Of a stretch of 64,000 bases of DNA, positions 52,434 to 63,483 are shown in pieces. This stretch comes from an uncultured Gammaproteobacteria bacterium. GTDB taxonomy: Bacteria; Patescibacteriota; Patescibacteriia; UBA11705; JABHMO01. The stretch is from contig CAZAKN010000004.1 of the NCBI GenBank assembly GCA_964486065.1, positions 15,705-79,704 on the forward strand, given 5' to 3'. The position numbers and the translations under genes were made by a program. Position 1 is the first letter of the stretch; every line of letters starts with the position of its first letter. The notes beneath the pieces were generated by a model. The model worked only from the letters and a program-made list of their open reading frames with translations, had not been told where the DNA came from and made no database searches.

Positions 52434-52509
52434 TGGAGCCACCTGTGGGACTTGAACCCGCAACCTACGGTTTACGATACCGTTGCTCTACCAATTGAGC
52501 TAAGGTGGC
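52434..52509 (-). tRNA. tRNA-Thr (anticodon CGU), CCA encoded
   Basis: minus-strand read GCCACCT-TA-GCTC-AATTGGTA-GAGC-A-ACGGT-ATCGTAA-ACCGT-AGGTT-GCGGG-TTCAAGT-CCCAC-AGGTGGC-T-CCA; perfect 7-bp acceptor, one C-A mismatch in T-stem. Confidence 0.8.
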
Positions 52510-54265: not shown

Positions 54266-54356
54266 GGAGAGGTGGCTGAGTGGTCGAAGGCGGCGGTCTT
54301 GAAAACCGTTGAGGGTTCATAGCCCTCCGTGGGTTCGAATCCCACCCTCTCCGCCA
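54266..54356 (+). tRNA. tRNA-Ser (anticodon UGA), long variable arm, CCA encoded
   Basis: GGAGAGG acceptor ... anticodon loop CTTGAAA ... GGTTCGAATCC T-arm ... CCTCTCC-G-CCA. Confidence 0.85.
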
Positions 54357-54552: not shown

Positions 54553-54641
<89 letters not shown>

Positions 54642-56130: not shown

Positions 56131-56160
56131 TTTATGTTATAATAAAGTTGTAATAATATT
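56131..56160 (+). repeat. 28-nt direct repeat, left copy (TTTATGTTATAATAAAGTTGtAATAATA); right copy at 63456-63483
   Basis: 27/28 identity between the two copies; each contains an extended -10-like TGTTATAAT. Confidence 0.6.
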
Positions 56161-56165
56161 GAAGC

Positions 56166-56195
56166 CCAGCCGTATGTTCGGCTGGGCGTTTTTAT
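56166..56195 (+). terminator. rho-independent terminator immediately after left repeat copy
   Basis: gcccagccg-tatgtt-cggctgggc + TTTTT. Confidence 0.6.
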
Positions 56196-56392
56196 ATACT
56201 AAAAAACCGGCAGATAACCGAGGAGCATAGAATGGTGTATATAGGTCATTCTACAACGGATTCAAGAGAGTATTTATTTCTTGGAGAGAGATAAAAAATT
56301 CCCTTGAGTTTGTTGTTGCTCCGCGAATGTCTACCGGCTTCGCGAATAGTTTTATTTGTTATACCATATATATTTATAAAATTCATTCCAAA

Positions 56393-56472
56393 TTTTCCGT
56401 TTCGGCCTTTTGGCCTCATCAGTGCTGATACACATCAGCAGACAGAAGGAAGTTTTTTGTTGAGAAACTTCC
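56393..56472 (-). ncRNA. type III hammerhead self-cleaving ribozyme (copy A) plus conserved 5' hairpin
   Basis: minus-strand: GGAAGTTTctcaacaaaAAACTTCC-TTCTGTC|TGCTGA-tgtgta-TCAGCA-CUGAUGA-GGCC-aaaa-GGCC-GAAAC-GGAA; canonical core, G10.1-C11.1, GUC cleavage triplet. Confidence 0.85.
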
Positions 56473-56617
56473 GAAAACTCGTAATCCAATCCCGAAGTGC
56501 GTTCGGGACACCGGTAACCCTACCGGATTTGAAAGAACGATGCTTCTGAGTTGACCTCCACTCTGAAGCGGTAGAGGAGTGTTCTGTTAAAGGTCAAACA
56601 CATAAAACCTTTCAGAT

Positions 56618-58741
56618 CTAGTGGCTACCCCATTTTAGCTTCAAGGCGTCCAGGGCGGATTCCATGCTCTGGTCATCGGTTTCATCCGAATCTTGAGCCG
56701 TGTTATCCGACACCTTGCCTTTGGCGCTACAGGTCGAGCAGGTGATTTCGAGCGTTCCGCCGGACTTGTATGACCGCATCTCACTCTTGGTCACTCGCTC
56801 CTTACATCCGCAGGTGCACTTGAAGTAGCGACCGCCGATGAAGGTGAAGTTACCATTATCTTGAGTCGTTTCCTTAATGTGCTCTGCCAATTCTTCCTCC
56901 GCGAACTTCCTTAGGCGAAGATTGATGTTCCACCCGCCCCACTTTTCGTAGGCGAGAGCTTCAATCATGCCGTTGGAGGTGCGCTTGGATGCGACGACCT
57001 GTGCGTCGCGACCTTCCGTGTACTGATCGAACGGCTTGTTCCAGTTCACCAGTCGGGAGATGCGATGATCATCCTGACAGATCTGGATACCGTATTCGCC
57101 AGTCATGGAGAGGTAAGTGCTTTCGTCGTAGACGAGCTTCTCACCGCAGGCCGGACAGTAGGGGAAAGCACTTGCGGCTTCGGCGATCACTTTGGCCTGA
57201 CGCTCGGCAGCCTCGGGGTCGAGTCCGAAGGAATTCTCGGTGGTACCGATATCCTCCAATTCGATCCGTCGGACAGCTTCGCGCTGGGCTTCGGTGAGAC
57301 CGTTGACGGGCATCTTCGCCACGATGAACTCGCTGGAGCCGGCGATGTCTCGCATAGTCCCGCAAGACCACTTGAGAGCCAGCTCATCCTCGTTAACATA
57401 GTTCCAACGATAGTTGCCATCGCTCTTGTAACGACATACATCATCGGAATCACGATCACGAAGCGATCCATCGGGTCGGATGACCCAGCCATCACCATTG
57501 CCACTCATACCGCCTCGGCGATGCCACGTCTCGAAGTTGATCAGGATTTCTCCACCATCCACTCGAGCCTGACGCTGTGCGATCCGGTCTTGCGCCTGTT
57601 GCCAGACAGTTTCGACCTTCTCACTCTTCGCTTTGGCGTCCGCGTATGATCCAACGGCCAGTGCTTCTTCAGCCTCTTGGATGAGCTTGCGTGCCTCCTT
57701 GATCTCCGAGTTGACGAAGCCCTTGTCGTCGAGGGAAGCGATCTTCCCTTCGAGAGTAGTCTTCGCTTCTTCGACGATCGCCTTGGTGCTCTCGTGCTCA
57801 CCGCCGATCTCGGTCTTCGCCGCTTCCATCGCCACCTTGAGTGCCTCGATCTTCTCCTCGATGTTATTCGAGGTCAGACCTTCGGCGTGCTCGCGAACGA
57901 GTTGCTCGTAACGGCCTTGGAGCGCATTACCCAGATCGGTGAAAGACCACCTGACATACCAGCCGGAGCTCTTCTCCTGCCACGGCTCCTCTTTAGGTAC
58001 TGCGAGGTTTTCCTCCACGGCTTTCTTCATGATCCCCTCGAGAGACTTTTGAGTTTCCTCAGTTGCCTTCTCTTGGGAATCTGCCAAGAAGATCTGCCAT
58101 TTGAAATACCCCGAGTACTTCTTGAGGCCGACGAATCCATTGATTGGGTCGCCGTTACCGTTTTCCGTACGGGTAATCTCGATGCTCGAGCCCACGCGAT
58201 CCAGCCAGCCGATGACCTTTGCAGTATCACTCGTATAGCTGGTTTCATGTTCACTGCGAGCCTCCGACCAGGATCGTTCGATCCGCGACTTCTCGAGCTT
58301 TTTCACCAATTCCGCGAAGGACTTGGCAGAGTGCCCGGAGCAACGAATCTCCACAGTGCGTCCGCTTGGGAGAATAACCGCTTCGACGGTCGTCTTGCGA
58401 GCGAATTCTTCCTCGACCGAGGTGCGGACATAAGTCTCACGGTAGTACTCCTTGCCGTACTCGATTTCCAGCGTAACGCCTTCAATCTCGACGGTATTGG
58501 GGTTATCAGTGATGACTAACTGCACCAGCTTGGGGTCAAGTTGCGGAAGTTTGAGGCTCTCGAAGTCAATCACTTCCATTGCAGAGCGTGCGCCATTAAG
58601 TCGTAAGACCAGCCAATCGCGCCATTCCGAATGTGTCATCAACTTGAAAATCTCTTTGCCCGCCCGAATGTTGAGCTGGCGGGCTTTTTCTTGTATCTGG
58701 CGGTTCTCAGTGATGACCGCCTGCAACATTTTTTGAGGCAT
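56618..58741 (-). CDS. large hypothetical protein with C-terminal Cys4 zinc-ribbon motifs (G+C-rich island)
   Basis: 707 aa; CPACGEK...CQDDH and CTCGCKER...CSTCSAKGK clusters near C-terminus; codon usage clearly G+C-rich unlike rest of window. Confidence 0.6.
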   Translation of the reverse strand: MPQKMLQAVITENRQIQEKARQLNIRAGKEIFKLMTHSEWRDWLVLRLNGARSAMEVIDFESLKLPQLDPKLVQLVITDNPNTVEIEGVTLEIEYGKEYYRETYVRTSVEEEFARKTTVEAVILPSGRTVEIRCSGHSAKSFAELVKKLEKSRIERSWSEARSEHETSYTSDTAKVIGWLDRVGSSIEITRTENGNGDPINGFVGLKKYSGYFKWQIFLADSQEKATEETQKSLEGIMKKAVEENLAVPKEEPWQEKSSGWYVRWSFTDLGNALQGRYEQLVREHAEGLTSNNIEEKIEALKVAMEAAKTEIGGEHESTKAIVEEAKTTLEGKIASLDDKGFVNSEIKEARKLIQEAEEALAVGSYADAKAKSEKVETVWQQAQDRIAQRQARVDGGEILINFETWHRRGGMSGNGDGWVIRPDGSLRDRDSDDVCRYKSDGNYRWNYVNEDELALKWSCGTMRDIAGSSEFIVAKMPVNGLTEAQREAVRRIELEDIGTTENSFGLDPEAAERQAKVIAEAASAFPYCPACGEKLVYDESTYLSMTGEYGIQICQDDHRISRLVNWNKPFDQYTEGRDAQVVASKRTSNGMIEALAYEKWGGWNINLRLRKFAEEELAEHIKETTQDNGNFTFIGGRYFKCTCGCKERVTKSEMRSYKSGGTLEITCSTCSAKGKVSDNTAQDSDETDDQSMESALDALKLKWGSH

Positions 58742-58819
58742 TCGTATCTCCTTTCGTGCCCGTGTCCCGCAACCAACTCTTGCGAGTGGTGCGGAACTTG
58801 GGCGTGGCAGGGTTTTTGG

Positions 58820-60766
58820 TCAGATACACATTTGACCGGCGAGCCAGTCGGCAAAAACCTCGGCCGCCTTCTCATGCTCCGGCGTCGCGACCTGCTCTTC
58901 TTTGACCTGCTGGCCGTTGAAGTGGGTGCGAGTGGTCGAAATGCATGAGTCCTTCTCGCTGTCGAATTCGGGGTTGAGCCCTTCCTCGGTATAAGCAAGC
59001 TGGGGAGCGACTTCGGCGAGCCATGCCGGATCGACTTTCGACGCCAATTCGATAAGACGCAGAGTTAGCATGCCTCTGCTCGTCTTGATTTGGAGGTCAA
59101 AAGGCTTCCCGACCAGCCATTTGGCGTTGCGGACAAGTGAAGCTGTCCCCAGTTCACGGTCAACTGTTTCACCATTTCGGTAAACATTGTATTGCCCGTG
59201 ATACAGGTGATCAACCATTCCCGCGCAGACAGCCTTGAGGATGTCCTCGCGTTTTCCGGTTGAACCGAATCGGAAGTACTTCTTGACGGCATTGGCGAGA
59301 TGATGTCGGATTTCTTTTGCCCGGAAATATTTCCGGATGCCGATACCTTTCTCGCGCATTTCGTCTTTCGACATCGAATTAGCCAACTGCCAAACGGCGA
59401 GTTGACCCATGACATCGGACTCATTTTCATGAGTCACCATGTATCTCCAATCCGGCCTTTCCGGACGGTTGCGACTCGGAGGCGGAACGGTAATTCCGCT
59501 TACTTCCATGATGGCTGCGACTGTCAGAACATCGTCTATGACGCCGAGCCGATCAGCTTCTACTAACATCCGAGCATACTTCACCGAAACAGGAAGGCGG
59601 TTTACCAGCCTGCCGATGGGCGTAACTTCCCCGGACTCAGTCATGCAACCGAGCCCGATCAGCGTCTGCCTGGCATCCTTGATATCCGACTTTGAGGGTT
59701 GATGGAAAAAATCCATCTCCTCCATGTCGAATCCGGCAATCGCTAAACGCAGAACAGTCTGATCAAGGCGTTTGCGCATGATTTCTGCGACCGGAAACTC
59801 ACGACGCGAACCACCGCAGTGGTCGATGTAGATTCCTTCTTTAGTCCGACCGGCGCGTCCTTTTCGTTGAGTGGCATCAGCGATGGAAATTGGCTTGAGA
59901 TACAAGCCTTCAACGCCATCCACCAGCTCGATTCGGCGCTCCATTCCGGAATCCACGACCGCATCGATGTCGTCGATCGTCACACTGGTCTGCGCGACAT
60001 TCGTCGACACTACGCATTTCGGACGGCCGTAATGTTTGAAACACTTGGCCTGATCCTCCGGCGTGAGTTGTCCGTGGAGAGGAAGGATTTCCGCATCCAC
60101 TCCCGTTTCTTTGATCTCGAAGATCGTCTCTTCGATTTCCTGCTTGCCCGGTTGGAACACTAGGACGTTCCGACCCTCGCGAATGAGTGCCGTTACATCA
60201 TCAACCAACCGATATGCAGGTTTACGGGATTCCACCGGGAAGAGTCGACCGGGAACCGAGATCACCGGCGCGCCGTTGTAGTAGGCGGACAGCTTTTCGG
60301 CTTCCATGGTTGCGCTCATAATCACAACCTTGAAATCGACGCCTTCCTGGATCTGATGCTTGGCCCATGCCACGAGGACTTCCATATTCTCGTTCCATTC
60401 ATGGACTTCGTCCAGAACCAGTACGCCTTTGTTCTGCCCCATCAGTTCGCGCACCAGCGCAAGTCCGTCGGTGCAGAACAAGCAACGGGTTGCAGGCGAG
60501 TCCTGCCGATCCACCGCAGTGCGGTAACCGACAGTGCCACCAAGATCCTTGCCGATTTCTTCGGCTACGCGCTGTGCCACCGTTCGGGCGGCCAGTCTGC
60601 GTGGCTGGGTCACGACAAGATCGTAACCTTCATCCAGCAGGTACTGGAGCACTTGCGTGCTTTTCCCTGCCCCGGTTTCGGCCGTGATGACGGTTACAGG
60701 ATTTTTGCGAACCGTTTCGACGATTGTCTTGCGGAACGCAGAGATAGGAAGTTCTTGATTGTTCAT
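58820..60766 (-). CDS. DEAH-box ATP-dependent helicase (HrpA/HrpB-like)
   Basis: motif I TGAGKSTQV, Ia VVTQPRRLAARTVAQR, DEVH (LVLDEVHE), SAT (MSATM), motif VI QRKGRAGR, HA2-like C-terminal region. Confidence 0.85.
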   Translation of the reverse strand: MNNQELPISAFRKTIVETVRKNPVTVITAETGAGKSTQVLQYLLDEGYDLVVTQPRRLAARTVAQRVAEEIGKDLGGTVGYRTAVDRQDSPATRCLFCTDGLALVRELMGQNKGVLVLDEVHEWNENMEVLVAWAKHQIQEGVDFKVVIMSATMEAEKLSAYYNGAPVISVPGRLFPVESRKPAYRLVDDVTALIREGRNVLVFQPGKQEIEETIFEIKETGVDAEILPLHGQLTPEDQAKCFKHYGRPKCVVSTNVAQTSVTIDDIDAVVDSGMERRIELVDGVEGLYLKPISIADATQRKGRAGRTKEGIYIDHCGGSRREFPVAEIMRKRLDQTVLRLAIAGFDMEEMDFFHQPSKSDIKDARQTLIGLGCMTESGEVTPIGRLVNRLPVSVKYARMLVEADRLGVIDDVLTVAAIMEVSGITVPPPSRNRPERPDWRYMVTHENESDVMGQLAVWQLANSMSKDEMREKGIGIRKYFRAKEIRHHLANAVKKYFRFGSTGKREDILKAVCAGMVDHLYHGQYNVYRNGETVDRELGTASLVRNAKWLVGKPFDLQIKTSRGMLTLRLIELASKVDPAWLAEVAPQLAYTEEGLNPEFDSEKDSCISTTRTHFNGQQVKEEQVATPEHEKAAEVFADWLAGQMCI

Positions 60767-60795
60767 TTTTTCTCCTTTGTACCCTTGGTTTTTAC

Positions 60796-60810
60796 CGTGG
60801 GCGTAAAGTT
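60796..60810 (-). promoter_or_regulatory. conserved 15-nt upstream motif AACTTTACGCCCACG (minus-strand sense), copy 1, ~30 nt upstream of helicase RBS
   Basis: identical 15-mer also at 61144-61158 at the same distance from the 91-aa gene start, followed in both by CAAGGG...AAGGAG. Confidence 0.45.
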
Positions 60811-60840
60811 TGTGTATTTCGGTGGCTTCGGCACTGCGCC

Positions 60841-61116
60841 TCAGCTCACCATCTCTTTGAACTGCTCGTCTCCGTAGTCCCTGCGAATCATTGCAAGGAA
60901 CCTGGTGGCTTTGGCGTACTCACTGGCCAGACGAGCACCGAAGTGCTTGTCGGCGAGGTCGAACGCCTTTTCGTACGCCTGTGTCGGCGTCTCATTGCCA
61001 GCAATCTGGACGAACTGCTCGCACAGCTCCTTGTCAGACAGCTGGAGGATGGCCGAAGCTCTCCTCTCCAAGTCTTGTAGCTCCCGATTGGGAGACCTGT
61101 CCTGAGACTTCATCAT
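60841..61116 (-). CDS. hypothetical small protein (91 aa; island)
   Basis: ORF with AAGGAGG RBS; G+C-rich codon usage like neighbours. Confidence 0.45.
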   Translation of the reverse strand: MMKSQDRSPNRELQDLERRASAILQLSDKELCEQFVQIAGNETPTQAYEKAFDLADKHFGARLASEYAKATRFLAMIRRDYGDEQFKEMVS

Positions 61117-61143
61117 TCACCTCCTTGCCCTTGATCTTGCGAT

Positions 61144-61158
61144 CGTGGGCGTAAAGTT
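61144..61158 (-). promoter_or_regulatory. conserved 15-nt upstream motif AACTTTACGCCCACG, copy 2 (preceded by TTGACA)
   Basis: see 60796-60810. Confidence 0.45.
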
Positions 61159-61213
61159 GCCTATGTTGTCAAAGATACGATCCCAGCATTTAACAAGCTT
61201 TAGATACTGGGGA

Positions 61214-61294
61214 CTTTCTGTTTCGTCCTTTCGGACTCATCAGCATGGACAACACATCCATGGACAGAAGCAAGTTTTTTTGAGAGAAACTTGC
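61214..61294 (-). ncRNA. type III hammerhead self-cleaving ribozyme (copy B) plus conserved 5' hairpin
   Basis: minus-strand: GCAAGTTTctctcaaaaAAACTTGC-TTCTGTC|CATGGA-tgtgttg-TCCATG-CUGAUGA-GUCC-gaaa-GGAC-GAAAC-AGAA; every helix differs from copy A by compensatory substitutions. Confidence 0.85.
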
Positions 61295-61427
61295 AAAACT
61301 CTTTGTAATCATCTCGAGAATAAGTCTCGGAATCCTCTCCCCCTAGAGGGAATTTTTAATTGCGCCTTTATTTATCCTTGAGGAAAGGGGAAAGGCTAAA
61401 CCTTGTTCGAGTTGATAGTATTGGTGG

Positions 61428-62345
61428 TTAGCCGAGCCGGGACTCGAGCGCCGGGAGGATCGTCTCGTTCCAGACCTTCTCGTTGCAGTGCAGGAGAAAG
61501 GCCACGTTCGAGAGCAGACCCGCCTGTGGCGACGTTTCCGTCCCTTCGGGCACGAGGTTACGCAGATCGATCTCGTCCTGATGCTTGCGCACCACAGCGA
61601 GGGAGTACTGCGTACCGTGACCGCCCGGCTTGCCCGCGATCGGACCGAAGTCCTTACGAACGACCGTGACCTTGGCGCCTTCCGATTCCATCCCACGCGT
61701 GAGCGTGTTCAGATCGGAGCGCTCGGCGCCCACCGAGTCGATGAGGACGACACCCGTGCAGGGCTTGCTCATCTTCTCGGCAAGCAGTCGCTCGGCCTCG
61801 GCCACACCGGCCTCGTACTCCGCCACGCGTCCCTCGAGGTTCGCGCGCGCCTCGGTGTCACCCGAAGCGGCCTTGACGAACGAATCGAACAGCTCGTTTT
61901 TCGCGTTTTCGCTTACTTCCGGCCGCTCTTTGTTGAAGGGGGGCAGGGTTGCGAGAGCGCGGACGGCCGTCCAACCAAGCTCCGTCAGCGTCTCCGCGGA
62001 CTGCTTCGGCCGGACATCGAATACTTCGGCGTCGTCATCCATCCCTTCGTACGAGACACCCACGGCCTTCATGGCCGCGACGAGACCATCGTAGTCGGGG
62101 TCGGCGACGATCACGTCGTAGTCCGAGAACTCTCCAAGCGTGATCAGGGTCGCGCATCCGGGAGCCGTTTTGCGGTCGACGATCTGGGCATTGTCACCCA
62201 AGATCTGCTCGATGGTGTCGGCGGCCTCGGGGTTGCGACCCTCACCCTTGTGGTGGTCACGGATCGTCACGGAGATCCCTTTCTCGACGAGCGACTCGAT
62301 GGTCGCCACGAGATCGGGGGTGGCGCCGGTGTCCACGAAGAGCAC
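61428..62345 (-). CDS. hypothetical protein (305 aa, GTG start; island)
   Basis: long G+C-rich ORF; start uncertain (an ATG with good RBS at 62454 is in another frame). Confidence 0.45.
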   Translation of the reverse strand: MLFVDTGATPDLVATIESLVEKGISVTIRDHHKGEGRNPEAADTIEQILGDNAQIVDRKTAPGCATLITLGEFSDYDVIVADPDYDGLVAAMKAVGVSYEGMDDDAEVFDVRPKQSAETLTELGWTAVRALATLPPFNKERPEVSENAKNELFDSFVKAASGDTEARANLEGRVAEYEAGVAEAERLLAEKMSKPCTGVVLIDSVGAERSDLNTLTRGMESEGAKVTVVRKDFGPIAGKPGGHGTQYSLAVVRKHQDEIDLRNLVPEGTETSPQAGLLSNVAFLLHCNEKVWNETILPALESRLG

Positions 62346-62747
62346 CTTCTGAGCATCGGCCCGGAATGGCCTCGAGTACGTTGGCGGAATCGCTGGCGGA
62401 AAAGAATTTGGAGAAAAAAACGGTCGTGGTGTTGATGGTGGTCTGGATCATTTCTGATCTCCTTCCGTAATTGTGGCCGTGGTTTCTAACCTTGGCCAGA
62501 TTTTTGGATTGTCCTCTACATAGTGCACCATGCACCAGATTCAGACGTACCACTCCCCATGAGTAGCGTTCTGACTACAGTATTTCCCAGCACTCGGTAT
62601 TATTCTCAATACATATCTCGTAAAAGTGATTATTGTTAACACTTACGAAATAAATGAAAAAATTACTGAGTGCTGGGTGAATATAAGCAGAAAGCTACTC
62701 ATGGAATTTTAACCAGCACTCAACTTAGTCCTAAATTTGCTTTATAA

Positions 62748-63008
62748 TATAGATGTATATATTACTTCTATGTCTTACAAAACAAACAGGGTTTATATTA
62801 TGGCTCAACGAATAATCTGAAGCGTCGTCTTAAAGAACATAATCTTAAACAATCTCAAGGTTCGCAATGGAAACTTGTTTATTACGAAGCGTATTTGTCA
62901 GAAACAGACGCTCGTAATCGTGAATCTCAGATCAAACATCATGGTCAAGCCAAAAGTTGGCTCAAGGAACGAATTAAGAATTCCTTGTCCAGCATCTCAC
63001 GGATGTGA
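62748..63008 (+). pseudogene. GIY-YIG nuclease-family small protein, apparently lacking an in-frame start (frameshifted N-terminus)
   Basis: frame-0 translation ...YYFYVLQNKQGLYYGSTNNLKRRLKEHN...WKLVYYEAY...ESQIKHHG... matches the small GIY-YIG family; ATG at 62770 (MSYKTNRVYIMAQRII*) is in a different frame. Confidence 0.5.
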
Positions 63009-63455
63009 GTGCTGGAGGTAAGACCAAGTTGAGTGCTGGTTGTACCTCATTTTAAAAGAACATCTGTGATTCCCCGCGTGGCTAGCAATAAAAAAAGGTA
63101 ATAAATGTTGTAATGCTCTTCAATGCGTCGGAGAGTACCACAACACTTACTACCTTTATATTATATAACTGACCGAAATCGGTTATAAAATAAGTGTGTA
63201 TGTTTGCAATGTTTACCCTGCACTTTTATAGTGCACGGGTCTCTCTCCAGCATTGCTTCCTCATTTATATACGGAATGAGGAACTAGTTTTTAAATCTTT
63301 CATCTTGATTTTGAATTATATAATATTTACGCATTCTTGTCAAATCTTCGGGGTAATGTATACATACCTTTTGTATTTTTTGCACTAAAATAAGGAATTA
63401 TTATTGTGAAGGGGAAATTCAGGATTGCCGAATTTTATTAAACGAGATTATATAT

Positions 63456-63483
63456 TTTATGTTATAATAAAGTTGGAATAATA
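63456..63483 (+). repeat. 28-nt direct repeat, right copy; doubles as promoter (-10 TGTTATAAT) for downstream AhpD-like gene
   Basis: see 56131-56160; -10 lies ~30 nt upstream of ATG 63499. Confidence 0.6.

What the first reader, a model, noticed from the sequence alone, without database searches (positions are those of the whole stretch)
56393..61294. Pair of canonical type III hammerhead ribozymes on the coding strand bracketing a three-gene, ~4.8 kb cassette
Two minus-strand hammerhead motifs sit at 56393-56448 and 61214-61270. Both contain the complete hammerhead core in the correct order: stem III 5' strand TTCTGT, cleavage triplet GUC, a closed stem I hairpin, CUGAUGA, a 4-bp stem II beginning with G10.1 and closed by C11.1 with a tetraloop, GAAA with the A15.1-U16.1 pair, then the stem III 3' strand. 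Every helix differs between the copies by compensatory changes:
- stem I: TGCTGA/TCAGCA versus CATGGA/TCCATG;
- stem II: GGCC/GGCC versus GTCC/GGAC;
- an extra hairpin immediately 5' of the ribozyme on the minus strand: GGAAGTTT...AAACTTCC versus GCAAGTTT...AAACTTGC, with a conserved loop.
Such covariation is a strong signature of a functional RNA rather than chance. The predicted self-cleavage sites are between 61263|61262 and between 56441|56440 on the minus strand. They sit in the 5' leader of the 91-aa gene and 3' of the 707-aa gene. A read-through transcript would therefore be cut into a 5'-OH / 2',3'-cyclic-phosphate RNA carrying the 91-aa gene, the DEAH helicase and the 707-aa zinc-ribbon protein. 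Paired hammerhead ribozymes are known to cluster near phage or mobile genes. A pair precisely bracketing a helicase-containing cassette in a compositionally foreign island was not something I could assign to a described system.
Basis: seen in the sequence. Interest (0 to 1): 0.9.

Follow-up and report, generated by a model that had tools for sequence, protein, structure and literature searches.

The report
Hammerhead ribozyme pair flanking helicase operon
Two genuine, evolutionarily conserved self-cleaving hammerhead ribozymes flank an RNA-helicase gene block on a horizontally acquired island, an arrangement already described for phage gene clusters but here tied to one specific gene pair in candidate-phyla (Patescibacteria-type) bacteria.

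Summary
Both minus-strand motifs are canonical type III hammerheads. Rfam RF00008 scores them 49.1 bits (above the 48.5 gathering score) and 45.0 bits (E=2e-7). Cores are intact and the cleavage sites are 61263|61262 and 56441|56440, as predicted.

A model of hairpin plus hammerhead finds the same pair, in the same positions, around homologous helicase/"707" gene pairs in independent metagenomic loci. Some of these come from a Komeilibacteria genome. Across 17 distinct copies, 97.9% of cells pair and 20 of 24 pairs show double changes.

The 648-aa protein is a complete DEAH/RHA RNA-helicase core. The 707-aa protein is its obligate partner and is fused to it in many relatives. Similarity to HrpA is tentative.

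The hammerheads are not the island boundaries. The GC-rich island (~56.16-63.45 kb) has its own consensus promoter, terminator, a 28-nt flanking direct repeat and further conserved structured RNAs.

The same hairpin plus hammerhead module occurs in arrays between genes in viral contigs, as Perreault et al. 2011 described.

Most likely function: co-transcriptional cleavage of a ~7-kb transcript into three RNAs.

Verdict: real, functional, and a new member of a known kind. Interest is moderate.

The parts
61205..61304 (-). Proximal module. Upstream 8-bp hairpin at 61294-61270. Type III hammerhead at 61270-61215. Cleavage after C61263.
   Evidence: Rfam RF00008 49.1 bits. Own model R1 109.3 bits. 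MFE fold matches the expected structure. Orthologous copies in L001, L002 and L008 are 89% identical.
56384..56482 (-). Distal module. Upstream 8-bp hairpin at 56472-56448. Type III hammerhead at 56448-56394. Cleavage after C56441.
   Evidence: Rfam RF00008 45.0 bits, E=2e-7. R1 111.2 bits. MFE fold matches. Orthologous copies in L001, L002, L007 and L008 are 84-88% identical.
60841..61116 (-). 91-aa ORF of unknown function, the first gene after the proximal cleavage site.
   Evidence: ORF list. Homologues at the same position in L007 and L008 are 63-66% identical. No Pfam, PHROG, NCBIfam or PADLOC hit.
58820..60766 (-). 648-aa DEAH/RHA-type RNA helicase core (RecA1, RecA2, winged helix, helical bundle, OB).
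   Evidence: Pfam DEAD, Helicase_C and HA2. PDB phmmer gives E~1e-74 to Prp22/Prp16-type helicases, DHX8 and HrpA over residues 4-590. NCBIfam HrpA scores 301 bits, below the equivalog cut-off.
56618..58741 (-). 707-aa partner protein with a C-terminal zinc ribbon. It always follows the helicase and is fused to it in many relatives.
   Evidence: Gene order is conserved in every related locus. The profile search finds 647 representatives, many of 1200-1700 aa with an N-terminal DEAH helicase. The AF2 model has pLDDT 83.9. The best Foldseek PDB hit is E. coli HrpA, E=2.8e-5. No sequence-level support.
61428..62450 (-). DHH-motif phosphoesterase-like gene upstream of the proximal hammerhead. It is frameshifted in this genome by a 1-nt insertion near 62357-62363. 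The true ATG is at 62450.
   Evidence: Homologues are ~340 aa, some with Pfam PF01368, from Patescibacteria and Uhrbacteria MAGs. The frameshift shows against L001 and L002 and is identical in the independent assembly L022.
62452..62704 (-). Conserved structured 5' leader of the DHH-like gene, with mutually exclusive pairings of CAGAACGCUNCUC.
   Evidence: Alignment with L001, L002 and L008. Inverted repeat I13.
63085..63343 (-). Island promoter: a perfect TTGACA-17-TATAAT at 63343-63315. A ~220-nt conserved structured RNA follows and ends in a long hairpin plus U7.
   Evidence: Promoter scan 12/12. Conserved with L008. MFE z=-6.6.
56201..56440 (-). RNA released 3' of the distal cleavage site. 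It comprises the ribozyme body plus a conserved ~145-nt multi-helix element (56345-56201) closed by a long stem and a U-run.
   Evidence: Alignments A8 and A9 with L001, L002, L007 and L008. Consensus fold. MFE z=-5.7. No Rfam family.
56164..56187 (.). GC-rich bidirectional terminator hairpin at the island's end.
   Evidence: Terminator scan. Conserved in L008.
56131..56158 (+). 28-nt direct repeat, copy 1. A possible att site or target duplication that abuts the island terminator.
   Evidence: the repeat finder family D1. Only two copies in the window, against 0 expected by chance.
63456..63483 (+). 28-nt direct repeat, copy 2 (27/28 identical), next to the flanking host gene.

Best explanation
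Both elements are active type III hammerhead ribozymes that work in cis on the mRNA.

Proposed transcript. The GC-rich island is transcribed on the minus strand as one long unit. It runs from the consensus promoter at about 63.3 kb to the U-run and terminator at about 56.2 kb.

Proposed cleavage. Each hammerhead folds as it emerges from the polymerase and cuts after C17. The primary transcript becomes three RNAs:
1. leader plus the DHH-like mRNA, ending ...hairpin-UUCUGUC with a 2',3'-cyclic phosphate;
2. a 4,822-nt mRNA (61262 to 56441) for the 91-aa protein, the DEAH helicase and its 707-aa partner. It starts with a 5'-OH on the folded ribozyme body and ends in the same hairpin-plus-cyclic-phosphate structure;
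3. a ~240-nt structured RNA, made of the ribozyme body plus a conserved multi-helix element.

Role of the hairpin. The hairpin that abuts stem III shields the ribozyme fold from upstream coding sequence. After cleavage it leaves a structured 3' end on the upstream product.

Net effect. The hammerheads act as operon punctuation or insulation. The helicase pair becomes independent of the variable upstream gene and of the downstream RNA in both stability and translation.

What is shown: the motifs, their conservation, covariation, position and strand.
What is inferred: cleavage itself, the single transcription unit, and the stability consequences.
For: Intact catalytic cores and the Rfam matches.

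Conservation of the module. A hairpin plus hammerhead covariance model finds the module in 10 distinct related loci. It is always on the coding strand and always intergenic.

Covariation. 97.9% of cells pair and 20/24 pairs show double changes. None of 500 shuffles reaches the observed value, and slid controls give 35-46%.

Selection on both copies. Proximal and distal copies are separately orthologous across loci. They are 84-89% identical in nucleotides, while the flanking genes are 60-78% identical. The two copies within the window are only 72% alike. Both are therefore under selection.

Position relative to genes. In L014, L019 and L021 a hammerhead lies between the helicase and the 707-like gene. 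In L001 a third copy ends an unrelated operon in a convergent intergenic region. This fits general transcript punctuation, not a fixed cassette boundary.

Viral contigs. The same module occurs 2-4 times per contig, directly after successive unrelated genes. Perreault et al. 2011 described this layout and showed cleavage of such arrays in vitro and in E. coli.

Transcription signals. The consensus promoter and the terminators bracket the whole island.
Against: No transcript data and no cleavage assay exist for this locus.

The distal copy falls 3.5 bits below Rfam's gathering score.

Several related helicase/707 loci have no hammerhead or any other Rfam ribozyme: L010, L011, L016, L017 and L023. 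The ribozymes are therefore dispensable for the gene pair.

An extended -10-like TGGTATAAY is conserved just after the distal hammerhead. A promoter-like stretch follows both L003 copies. The downstream RNA may therefore have its own promoter, in which case the hammerhead would mainly trim read-through.

The terminator after the 5' structured RNA may stop most transcripts before they reach the genes.
Confidence: 0.72

Rival explanations
1. Circular RNA. The 4.8-kb RNA excised by the two hammerheads carries a 5'-OH and a 2',3'-cyclic phosphate. It is joined into a circle, either by RtcB-type ligation or by hammerhead reversal. The circle would be a stable or rolling-circle-translated mRNA, or a mobile RNA intermediate, as in retrozymes and viroid-like RNAs.
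For: Both copies are in the same orientation. Within the window they share an identical stem III 5' strand (UUCUGUC). The 3' end of the excised RNA could therefore re-pair with the ribozyme body at its own 5' end. Perreault et al. raised this possibility for bacterial arrays.
Against: Perreault et al. looked for circular or spliced products and found none.

The arrangement is not constant. Some loci have a single hammerhead, some have one between the two genes, and L014 has a pair with incompatible stems III (CUGUU/AACAG versus UACUU/AAGUA).

The island has no reverse transcriptase and no ligase gene. The window has no RtcB motif.

The unit is 4.8 kb and protein-coding, unlike known hammerhead circles.
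Confidence: 0.06
2. DNA-level role. The ~100-nt direct repeats that contain the hammerheads are recombination or cassette-boundary sequences. They would let the helicase/707 module be excised, duplicated or exchanged between islands. On this view the RNA activity is secondary.
For: The conserved helicase/707 unit is what lies between the repeats, while upstream genes vary.

The helicase and 707 genes have mosaic histories. Against L001 the helicase is 50% identical (aa) and 707 is 73%. Against L008 the values are 81% and 48%.

In L003 the two copies plus ~275 nt downstream are 90-96% identical. This suggests gene conversion or recent duplication.
Against: Selection acts on RNA pairing, not on sequence. 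Compensatory double changes occur in all four helices and the catalytic core is invariant.

The two copies in the window are only 72% identical. The longest shared stretch is too short for efficient homologous recombination.

The island's real boundaries lie elsewhere.
Confidence: 0.08
3. Regulated ribozyme or feedback loop. The DEAH RNA helicase with its partner, or the DHH enzyme, remodels or acts on the hammerhead-containing RNAs. Cleavage efficiency would then set the helicase's own expression, or the processed structured RNAs would be substrates or cofactors of the proteins.
For: Hammerheads stay associated with one RNA-helicase gene pair across diverged loci. The island carries further conserved structured RNAs: a 5' element, a leader and a 3' element. 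All recognisable proteins are RNA- or nucleotide-directed.
Against: This rests on co-occurrence alone. The same hammerhead module serves unrelated genes in viral contigs. Many helicase/707 loci lack it.
Confidence: 0.1
4. Non-functional relics or chance matches.
For: The distal copy is below Rfam's gathering score.
Against: E-values are 1e-7 to 1e-8. The cores are intact. Covariation is strong and conservation exceeds that of the neighbouring coding DNA.
Confidence: 0.02

Closest known systems
Clustered hammerhead ribozymes flanking genes in bacterial prophages (Perreault et al. 2011, PMC3088659; e.g. the triple array around ardA in Agrobacterium tumefaciens)
   Same: Several canonical hammerheads lie on the coding strand in intergenic positions. 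They flank single genes or short blocks on horizontally acquired DNA. The proposed role is to cut long transcripts into gene-length mRNAs. I find the same hairpin plus type III module in such arrays in IMG/VR contigs.
   Different: No integrase and no phage gene is detectable here. In the described arrays the flanked genes are not constant. Here the association with a DEAH helicase and its partner recurs across diverged loci from candidate-phyla bacteria.
HHphage variant in haloviruses HF1/HF2, 13 nt upstream of a helicase gene (discussed in PMC3088659)
   Same: A hammerhead sits in the 5' leader of a helicase gene that opens a polycistronic transcript. The mapped 5' end coincides with the cleavage site.
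   Different: That is an archaeal virus with a variant hammerhead core, a DNA helicase and a single copy. Here the core is canonical, the helicase is a DEAH RNA helicase, the copies are paired, and the cleavage site is 146 nt from the first start codon.
RiboJ-type synthetic ribozyme insulators (sTRSV hammerhead plus hairpin); from my own knowledge
   Same: A type III hammerhead with an adjacent hairpin is used to cut off upstream RNA context and give a defined 5' end to the downstream mRNA. Loop I has the GAUGUG motif typical of sTRSV-like hammerheads.
   Different: RiboJ is engineered and its extra hairpin lies 3' of the ribozyme. Here the conserved hairpin lies 5' and abuts stem III. A second hairpin follows the proximal copy only.
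Retrozymes and viroid-like hammerhead circular RNAs; from my own knowledge
   Same: Two same-orientation hammerheads in direct repeats could release an RNA with ligatable ends.
   Different: Those units are non-coding or a few hundred nt, depend on a reverse transcriptase or an RNA replicase, and are eukaryotic or RNA-only. Here the unit is a 4.8-kb three-gene bacterial mRNA. No reverse transcriptase is present and the hammerhead layout varies among relatives.
HrpA, the bacterial DEAH helicase that splits collided ribosomes (PMC11419001)
   Same: The 648-aa protein has the whole DEAH/RHA core. With the 707-aa partner, which is often fused, it reproduces the architecture of a core plus a long C-terminal region. 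Full-length HrpA is the best Foldseek PDB hit of the 707-aa model.
   Different: The protein is split into two genes. NCBIfam scores are far below the HrpA equivalog cut-off. Profile comparison of the 707 family with an HrpA C-terminal region is negative and TM-scores are low. The 707-aa protein has zinc ribbons that are not described for HrpA.

Membership tests
Hammerhead ribozyme, type III (Rfam RF00008) | Conserved catalytic core: C3-U4-G5-A6-N7-G8-A9, G12-A13-A14, the A15.1-U16.1 pair, and H17 at the cleavage site | tested here: met
   Both copies have CUGAUGA ... GAAA with A15.1-U16.1 and C17. All 22 real hits in related loci keep CUGAUGA or CUGACGA, GAA-A and C17.
Hammerhead ribozyme, type III (Rfam RF00008) | Three helices around the core, with stems I and II closed by loops and stem III open | tested here: met
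   cmscan alignments. MFE and centroid folds give exactly this junction.
Hammerhead ribozyme, type III (Rfam RF00008) | Covariance-model score at or above the curated gathering score (48.5 bits): proximal copy | tested here: met
   49.1 bits, E=9.2e-8 for the whole window.
Hammerhead ribozyme, type III (Rfam RF00008) | Covariance-model score at or above the curated gathering score (48.5 bits): distal copy | tested here: not met
   45.0 bits, E=2e-7. The shortfall is small. It is offset by a full-length alignment, an intact core and orthologues.
Hammerhead ribozyme, type III (Rfam RF00008) | Helices supported by compensatory changes among homologues | tested here: met
   Among 17 distinct sequences, 97.9% of cells pair and 20/24 pairs show double changes. 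None of 500 shuffles reaches this, and slid controls give 35-46%. The alignment was fitted to the model, which favours the structure somewhat.
Hammerhead ribozyme, type III (Rfam RF00008) | Mg2+-dependent site-specific self-cleavage giving a 5'-OH and a 2',3'-cyclic phosphate | not testable with these tools
   Needs in vitro transcription and a cleavage assay.
Clustered hammerheads flanking genes on prophage or mobile DNA (Perreault et al. 2011) | Two or more hammerheads close together, on the same strand as the genes, in intergenic positions flanking a gene or a short block | tested here: met
   Window. Also L001, L002, L003, L008 and L014.
Clustered hammerheads flanking genes on prophage or mobile DNA (Perreault et al. 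2011) | Prophage context: integrase or phage genes nearby | tested here: not met
   No PHROG, PADLOC or integrase hits for the island proteins. tblastn of the 707-aa protein against phage genomes finds nothing. The helicase hits only bacterial hrpA/hrpB. The island is nonetheless compositionally foreign and flanked by a 28-nt direct repeat.
Clustered hammerheads flanking genes on prophage or mobile DNA (Perreault et al. 2011) | The same ribozyme subtype is found in viral genomes in arrays | tested here: met
   35 IMG/VR contigs carry the loop I and core pattern. Model R1 gives 58 hits, up to 4 per contig, placed directly after consecutive genes.
Retrozyme / hammerhead circular RNA | Hammerheads embedded in long terminal direct repeats around a short non-coding unit, with reverse-transcription signals or a replicase | tested here: not met
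   The repeats are ~100 nt and 72% identical. The unit is 4.8 kb with three ORFs. No reverse-transcriptase domain is present.
Retrozyme / hammerhead circular RNA | A circular RNA product | not testable with these tools
   Needs RNA-seq junction reads or a 2D-gel northern.
HrpA-type DEAH helicase | Complete DEAH/RHA core (RecA1, RecA2, winged helix, helical bundle, OB) | tested here: met
   phmmer gives E~1e-72 to HrpA and 1e-74 to Prp22/Prp16-type helicases over residues 4-590. Pfam DEAD, Helicase_C and HA2.
HrpA-type DEAH helicase | NCBIfam HrpA equivalog score cut-off (TIGR01967, 722.75 bits) | tested here: not met
   301.3 bits.
HrpA-type DEAH helicase | DUF3418-like C-terminal region homologous to that of HrpA | tested here: inconclusive

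The most novel reading that the evidence does not exclude
The island is an RNA-centred mobile module of candidate-phyla bacteria. In this reading the hammerheads do more than punctuate. They manufacture defined RNAs that are substrates or cofactors of the split HrpA-like helicase, its zinc-ribbon partner and the DHH phosphoesterase. These RNAs are the 4.8-kb mRNA with 5'-OH and cyclic-phosphate ends, which might circularise, and the ~240-nt structured RNA that keeps the ribozyme body. This would be a new ribozyme-dependent RNA-processing, ribosome-rescue or defence system. My evidence does not exclude it. The hammerhead association with this gene pair recurs, and three further conserved structured RNAs of unknown family sit on the same island.
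Probability: 0.1. Interest if true: 0.8.

Novelty: new member of a known kind. Interest (0 to 1): 0.42.

Why it matters
What hammerhead ribozymes do in bacteria is still unsettled. Most known copies sit in prophages next to ever-changing genes, which makes function hard to test.

Here a pair of clearly selected hammerheads is tied to one definable operon. The operon encodes a DEAH RNA helicase, its partner and a DHH enzyme, and it recurs in several lineages of candidate-phyla bacteria. Natural variants exist with two, one, relocated or no ribozymes.

That gives a comparative and experimentally portable system. It can test whether bacterial hammerheads act as operon punctuation or insulators, and what 5'-OH and cyclic-phosphate ends do to mRNA fate.

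The work also flags two further things. One is a split, possibly HrpA-like, helicase family. The other is a set of unclassified structured RNAs in organisms whose RNA biology is almost unknown.

Tried and rejected
- Defence system: PADLOC gives only generic Cas3/RecD-like helicase hits and no system.
- Phage origin: PHROGs finds nothing specific. tblastn of the 707-aa protein against 50,697 phage records finds no match. The helicase matches only bacterial hrpA/hrpB in mislabelled records. A viral-contig scan with the 707-aa protein finds no relative.
- Pfam and NCBIfam for the 707-aa, 91-aa and 142-aa proteins: nothing.
- 707 family against PDB by profile: nothing.
- hhalign against the HrpA C-terminal region: negative.
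- The afdb50 library was unavailable.
- The first broad alignments were too divergent for the search for related loci.
- Other ribozyme classes in hammerhead-less relatives: no Rfam hit at E<=0.1.
- Hammerheads next to DHH-like genes in three further genomes (L023-L027): none.
- RtcB motif in the window: none, which is uninformative for the genome.
- Flanking direct repeats around the island in other loci: none convincing.
- Organism name for the window: not obtainable.
- My first regex for hammerheads was faulty and missed known copies. The covariance model replaced it.
- Literature search for hammerheads in candidate phyla or Patescibacteria: nothing relevant.


Full report
**1. The observation**

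I read the minus strand at both sites.

- Each site has an 8-bp hairpin that abuts stem III. The arms are GGAAGUUU/AAACUUCC in the distal copy and GCAAGUUU/AAACUUGC in the proximal copy.
- Then come UUCUGU, C17, a closed stem I, CUGAUGA, a 4-bp stem II with a tetraloop, GAAA and the 3' strand of stem III.
- Stems I and II and the hairpin differ between the copies by compensatory changes.
- By my count the scissile bonds are 61263|61262 and 56441|56440.

Rfam's Hammerhead_3 model matches 61215-61270(-) at 49.1 bits, just above the 48.5-bit gathering score, with E=9e-8 for the whole window. It matches 56394-56448(-) at 45.0 bits, E=2e-7.

Folded alone, each 87-88-nt segment gives exactly hairpin plus three-way junction as its MFE and centroid structure.

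The three ORFs lie between the sites. The region 56.5-62.5 kb has GC 0.52-0.65, against 0.33-0.42 around it.

**2. Is it more than two good matches?**

The 707-aa protein belongs to a rare family in a word-based search, with 41 hits. I fetched related loci through encoding contigs and pattern scans. In every one a DEAH helicase gene directly precedes a gene whose product shares at least the N-terminal ~135 residues of the 707-aa protein.

I built a covariance model of hairpin plus hammerhead from seven copies and searched all loci with it.

- Pairs in the same positions as in the window: L001, L002, L003/4/6 (a Komeilibacteria genome) and L008.
- A distal copy at the end of a short contig: L007.
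- One copy upstream of the helicase: L009 and L020.
- A copy between the helicase and the 707-like gene: L014 (which has a second copy downstream), L019 and L021.
- None: L010-L013 and L016-L018.

Over 17 distinct sequences, 97.9% of cells pair and 20 of 24 pairs show double changes. No shuffle reaches these values, and slid registers pair at only 35-46%. Every real hit keeps the catalytic core and C17.

The proximal copies of different loci resemble each other, and so do the distal copies, at 84-89% nucleotide identity. This exceeds the identity of the two copies in the window (72%) and of the neighbouring genes (60-78%). Both copies are therefore old, separately maintained and under selection for RNA structure.

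**3. What the hammerheads flank**

The 648-aa protein is a complete DEAH/RHA RNA-helicase core. It aligns at E~1e-74 to Prp22/Prp16-type helicases and DHX8, and at ~1e-72 to HrpA, over residues 4-590. It has the Pfam domains DEAD, Helicase_C and HA2. It scores far below the HrpA and HrpB equivalog cut-offs.

The 707-aa protein has no Pfam, NCBIfam, PHROG, PADLOC or PDB sequence match. An exhaustive profile search finds 647 cluster representatives. Many are 1200-1700 aa, with the 707-like part at the C-terminus. Five of the six long ones I checked start with a recognisable DEAH helicase domain. The two genes therefore encode one functional unit.

An AlphaFold model of the 707-aa protein has mean pLDDT 83.9. 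Its best Foldseek PDB hit is full-length E. coli HrpA in the collided-disome structure (9gft_B, E=2.8e-5, prob 1.0). The next hit is an HrpA fragment. HrpA is a helicase core followed by a long C-terminal region that recognises collided ribosomes (PMC11419001).

This resemblance is tentative for three reasons:
- TM-scores are 0.10-0.15.
- A profile comparison with an HrpA C-terminal region is negative.

I therefore call the pair a split, HrpA-like-in-architecture helicase. I do not call it an HrpA orthologue.

**4. The island**

The gene upstream of the proximal hammerhead is a DHH-motif protein. Its ~340-aa homologues come from Patescibacteria and Uhrbacteria MAGs. In the window it carries a 1-nt frameshift, which is also present in an independent assembly.

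The unit conserved with L008, L001 and L002 runs from a structured leader through both hammerheads to a ~145-nt multi-helix RNA and a terminator.

Further upstream there is a perfect TTGACA-17-TATAAT promoter. A ~220-nt conserved structured RNA follows it and ends in a hairpin plus U7.

A 28-nt direct repeat (27/28 identical) occurs only at 56131-56158 and 63456-63483. It brackets the whole unit.

The cassette is GC-richer than its flanks in most hosts. It is mosaic: helicase and 707 identities to L001 and L008 are reciprocal. The ORF between the leader and the proximal hammerhead is unrelated in L008.

The island is therefore a horizontally moving module. The hammerheads lie inside it, not at its ends. 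No integrase is present.

**5. Comparison with what is known**

Perreault et al. 2011 reported that bacterial hammerheads often occur in groups flanking single genes or short blocks in prophages. The gene identities vary. The arrays cleave in vitro and in E. coli. The authors proposed processing of long transcripts and did not detect circular or spliced products.

I scanned IMG/VR with the loop I and core pattern of this subtype and found 35 contigs. Model R1 gives 58 hits, up to four per contig. In many the upstream hairpin pairs at 95%. In L030 and L036 the copies sit directly after consecutive genes, which include an ATPase, an HNH endonuclease and auxiliary genes. None of these contigs encodes the helicase or the 707-aa protein.

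The ribozyme, the hairpin-plus-ribozyme module and the flanking arrangement are therefore all of a known kind. What is new is the recurrent association with this helicase pair in candidate-phyla bacteria and the RNA-rich island. I found no paper linking hammerheads with these bacteria.

**6. Mechanism**

The best-supported reading is co-transcriptional self-cleavage that divides a ~7-kb transcript into three RNAs:
- leader plus DHH mRNA;
- a 4,822-nt mRNA for the 91-aa protein, the helicase and the 707-aa protein;
- a ~240-nt structured RNA.

The 5' hairpin insulates the ribozyme fold and leaves a structured 3' end with a cyclic phosphate on the upstream product.

Three observations favour general punctuation over a cassette-specific or circularising role: the relocated copies (L014, L019), the third L001 copy at the end of an unrelated operon, and the viral arrays. 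In addition, L014's two copies have incompatible stems III.

The rivals remain possible but less likely. They are a circular RNA, DNA-level recombination repeats (hinted at by the 90-96% identical 275-nt repeats of L003), and a helicase-ribozyme feedback loop. Cleavage, the transcript boundaries and the consequences for stability are inferred, not shown.

**7. Verdict**

The finding is real and its interpretation is essentially right. It belongs to a described class of arrangement, so it is a new member of a known kind. Interest is moderate (0.42). It offers a well-defined natural system for asking what bacterial hammerheads do, and it exposes an uncharacterised split helicase family and several unclassified structured RNAs.

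Noticed in passing
window 56201-56345 (-), with the region up to 56440: A conserved ~145-nt multi-helix RNA lies just 3' of the distal hammerhead. It is closed by a long stem plus a U-run and has some covariation in L008. An extended -10-like TGGTATAAC precedes it. No Rfam family matches. The MFE z-score for the 240-nt cleavage product is -5.7.
   Followed up: partly
window 63085-63343 (-): A perfect sigma-70 consensus promoter is followed by a ~220-nt structured element that is conserved with L008. It ends in a long hairpin plus U7 (z=-6.6). It could be a small RNA or a terminator-controlled leader of the island.
   Followed up: partly
window 62452-62704 (-): The leader of the DHH-like gene is conserved. 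The segment CAGAACGCUNCUC can pair either upstream or downstream, giving an attenuator- or riboswitch-like alternative. The leader is conserved even where the downstream ORF is unrelated (L008).
   Followed up: partly
window ~62357-62363 (-): The DHH-like gene has a 1-nt insertion (CCGGGCC where relatives have CCGGCC). This separates the conserved N-terminal 31 codons (ATG at 62450) from the rest. The independent Logan assembly L022 has the same sequence. It may be a pseudogene or an assembly error.
   Followed up: yes
window 62711-63041 (+): A small frameshifted GIY-YIG-like ORF (~62777-63010) is flanked by 23-nt inverted repeats (62711-62733 and 63019-63041). Several nearby hairpins share a CCAGCACTC motif. 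It looks like a decayed miniature mobile insert inside the island's long leader.
   Followed up: no
window 56131-56158 and 63456-63483 (+): A 28-nt direct repeat (27/28 identical) brackets the whole island and occurs nowhere else in the window. It is a possible att site or target duplication, yet the island has no integrase.
   Followed up: partly
L003 7764-8038 and 12057-12329; also 4419, 5146 and 5911: In the Komeilibacteria locus the two hammerheads plus ~275 nt downstream are 90-96% identical to each other, but their upstream hairpins differ. Three consecutive upstream genes each carry the same ~80-nt 5' UTR repeat.
   Followed up: partly
L001 19482-19580 (+): A third hairpin plus hammerhead module has a different stem III (CCUAU/AUGGG). 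It sits at the 3' end of an unrelated operon in a convergent intergenic region.
   Followed up: partly
L020 4666-4785 (-): A strong match to LOOT RNA (RF03000, 82 bits) lies about 3 kb upstream of the helicase cassette.
   Followed up: no
L023 and L024: Two syntenic Patescibacteria genomes carry the GC-rich DHH-like gene at the same chromosomal site. Only one has the helicase/707-like pair after it, and neither has hammerheads.
   Followed up: partly
L040 and L042 (IMG/VR records of 366 and 377 nt): These two tiny 'viral contigs' hit by the hammerhead pattern have the size of viroid-like or satellite RNAs that carry a type III hammerhead.
   Followed up: no
window 54266-54356 and 54553-54640 (+); 52434-52509 (-): Two tRNA-Ser genes (UGA and CGA anticodons) and a tRNA-Thr gene lie 1.5-4 kb from the island, but they do not overlap the direct repeat.
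   Followed up: no
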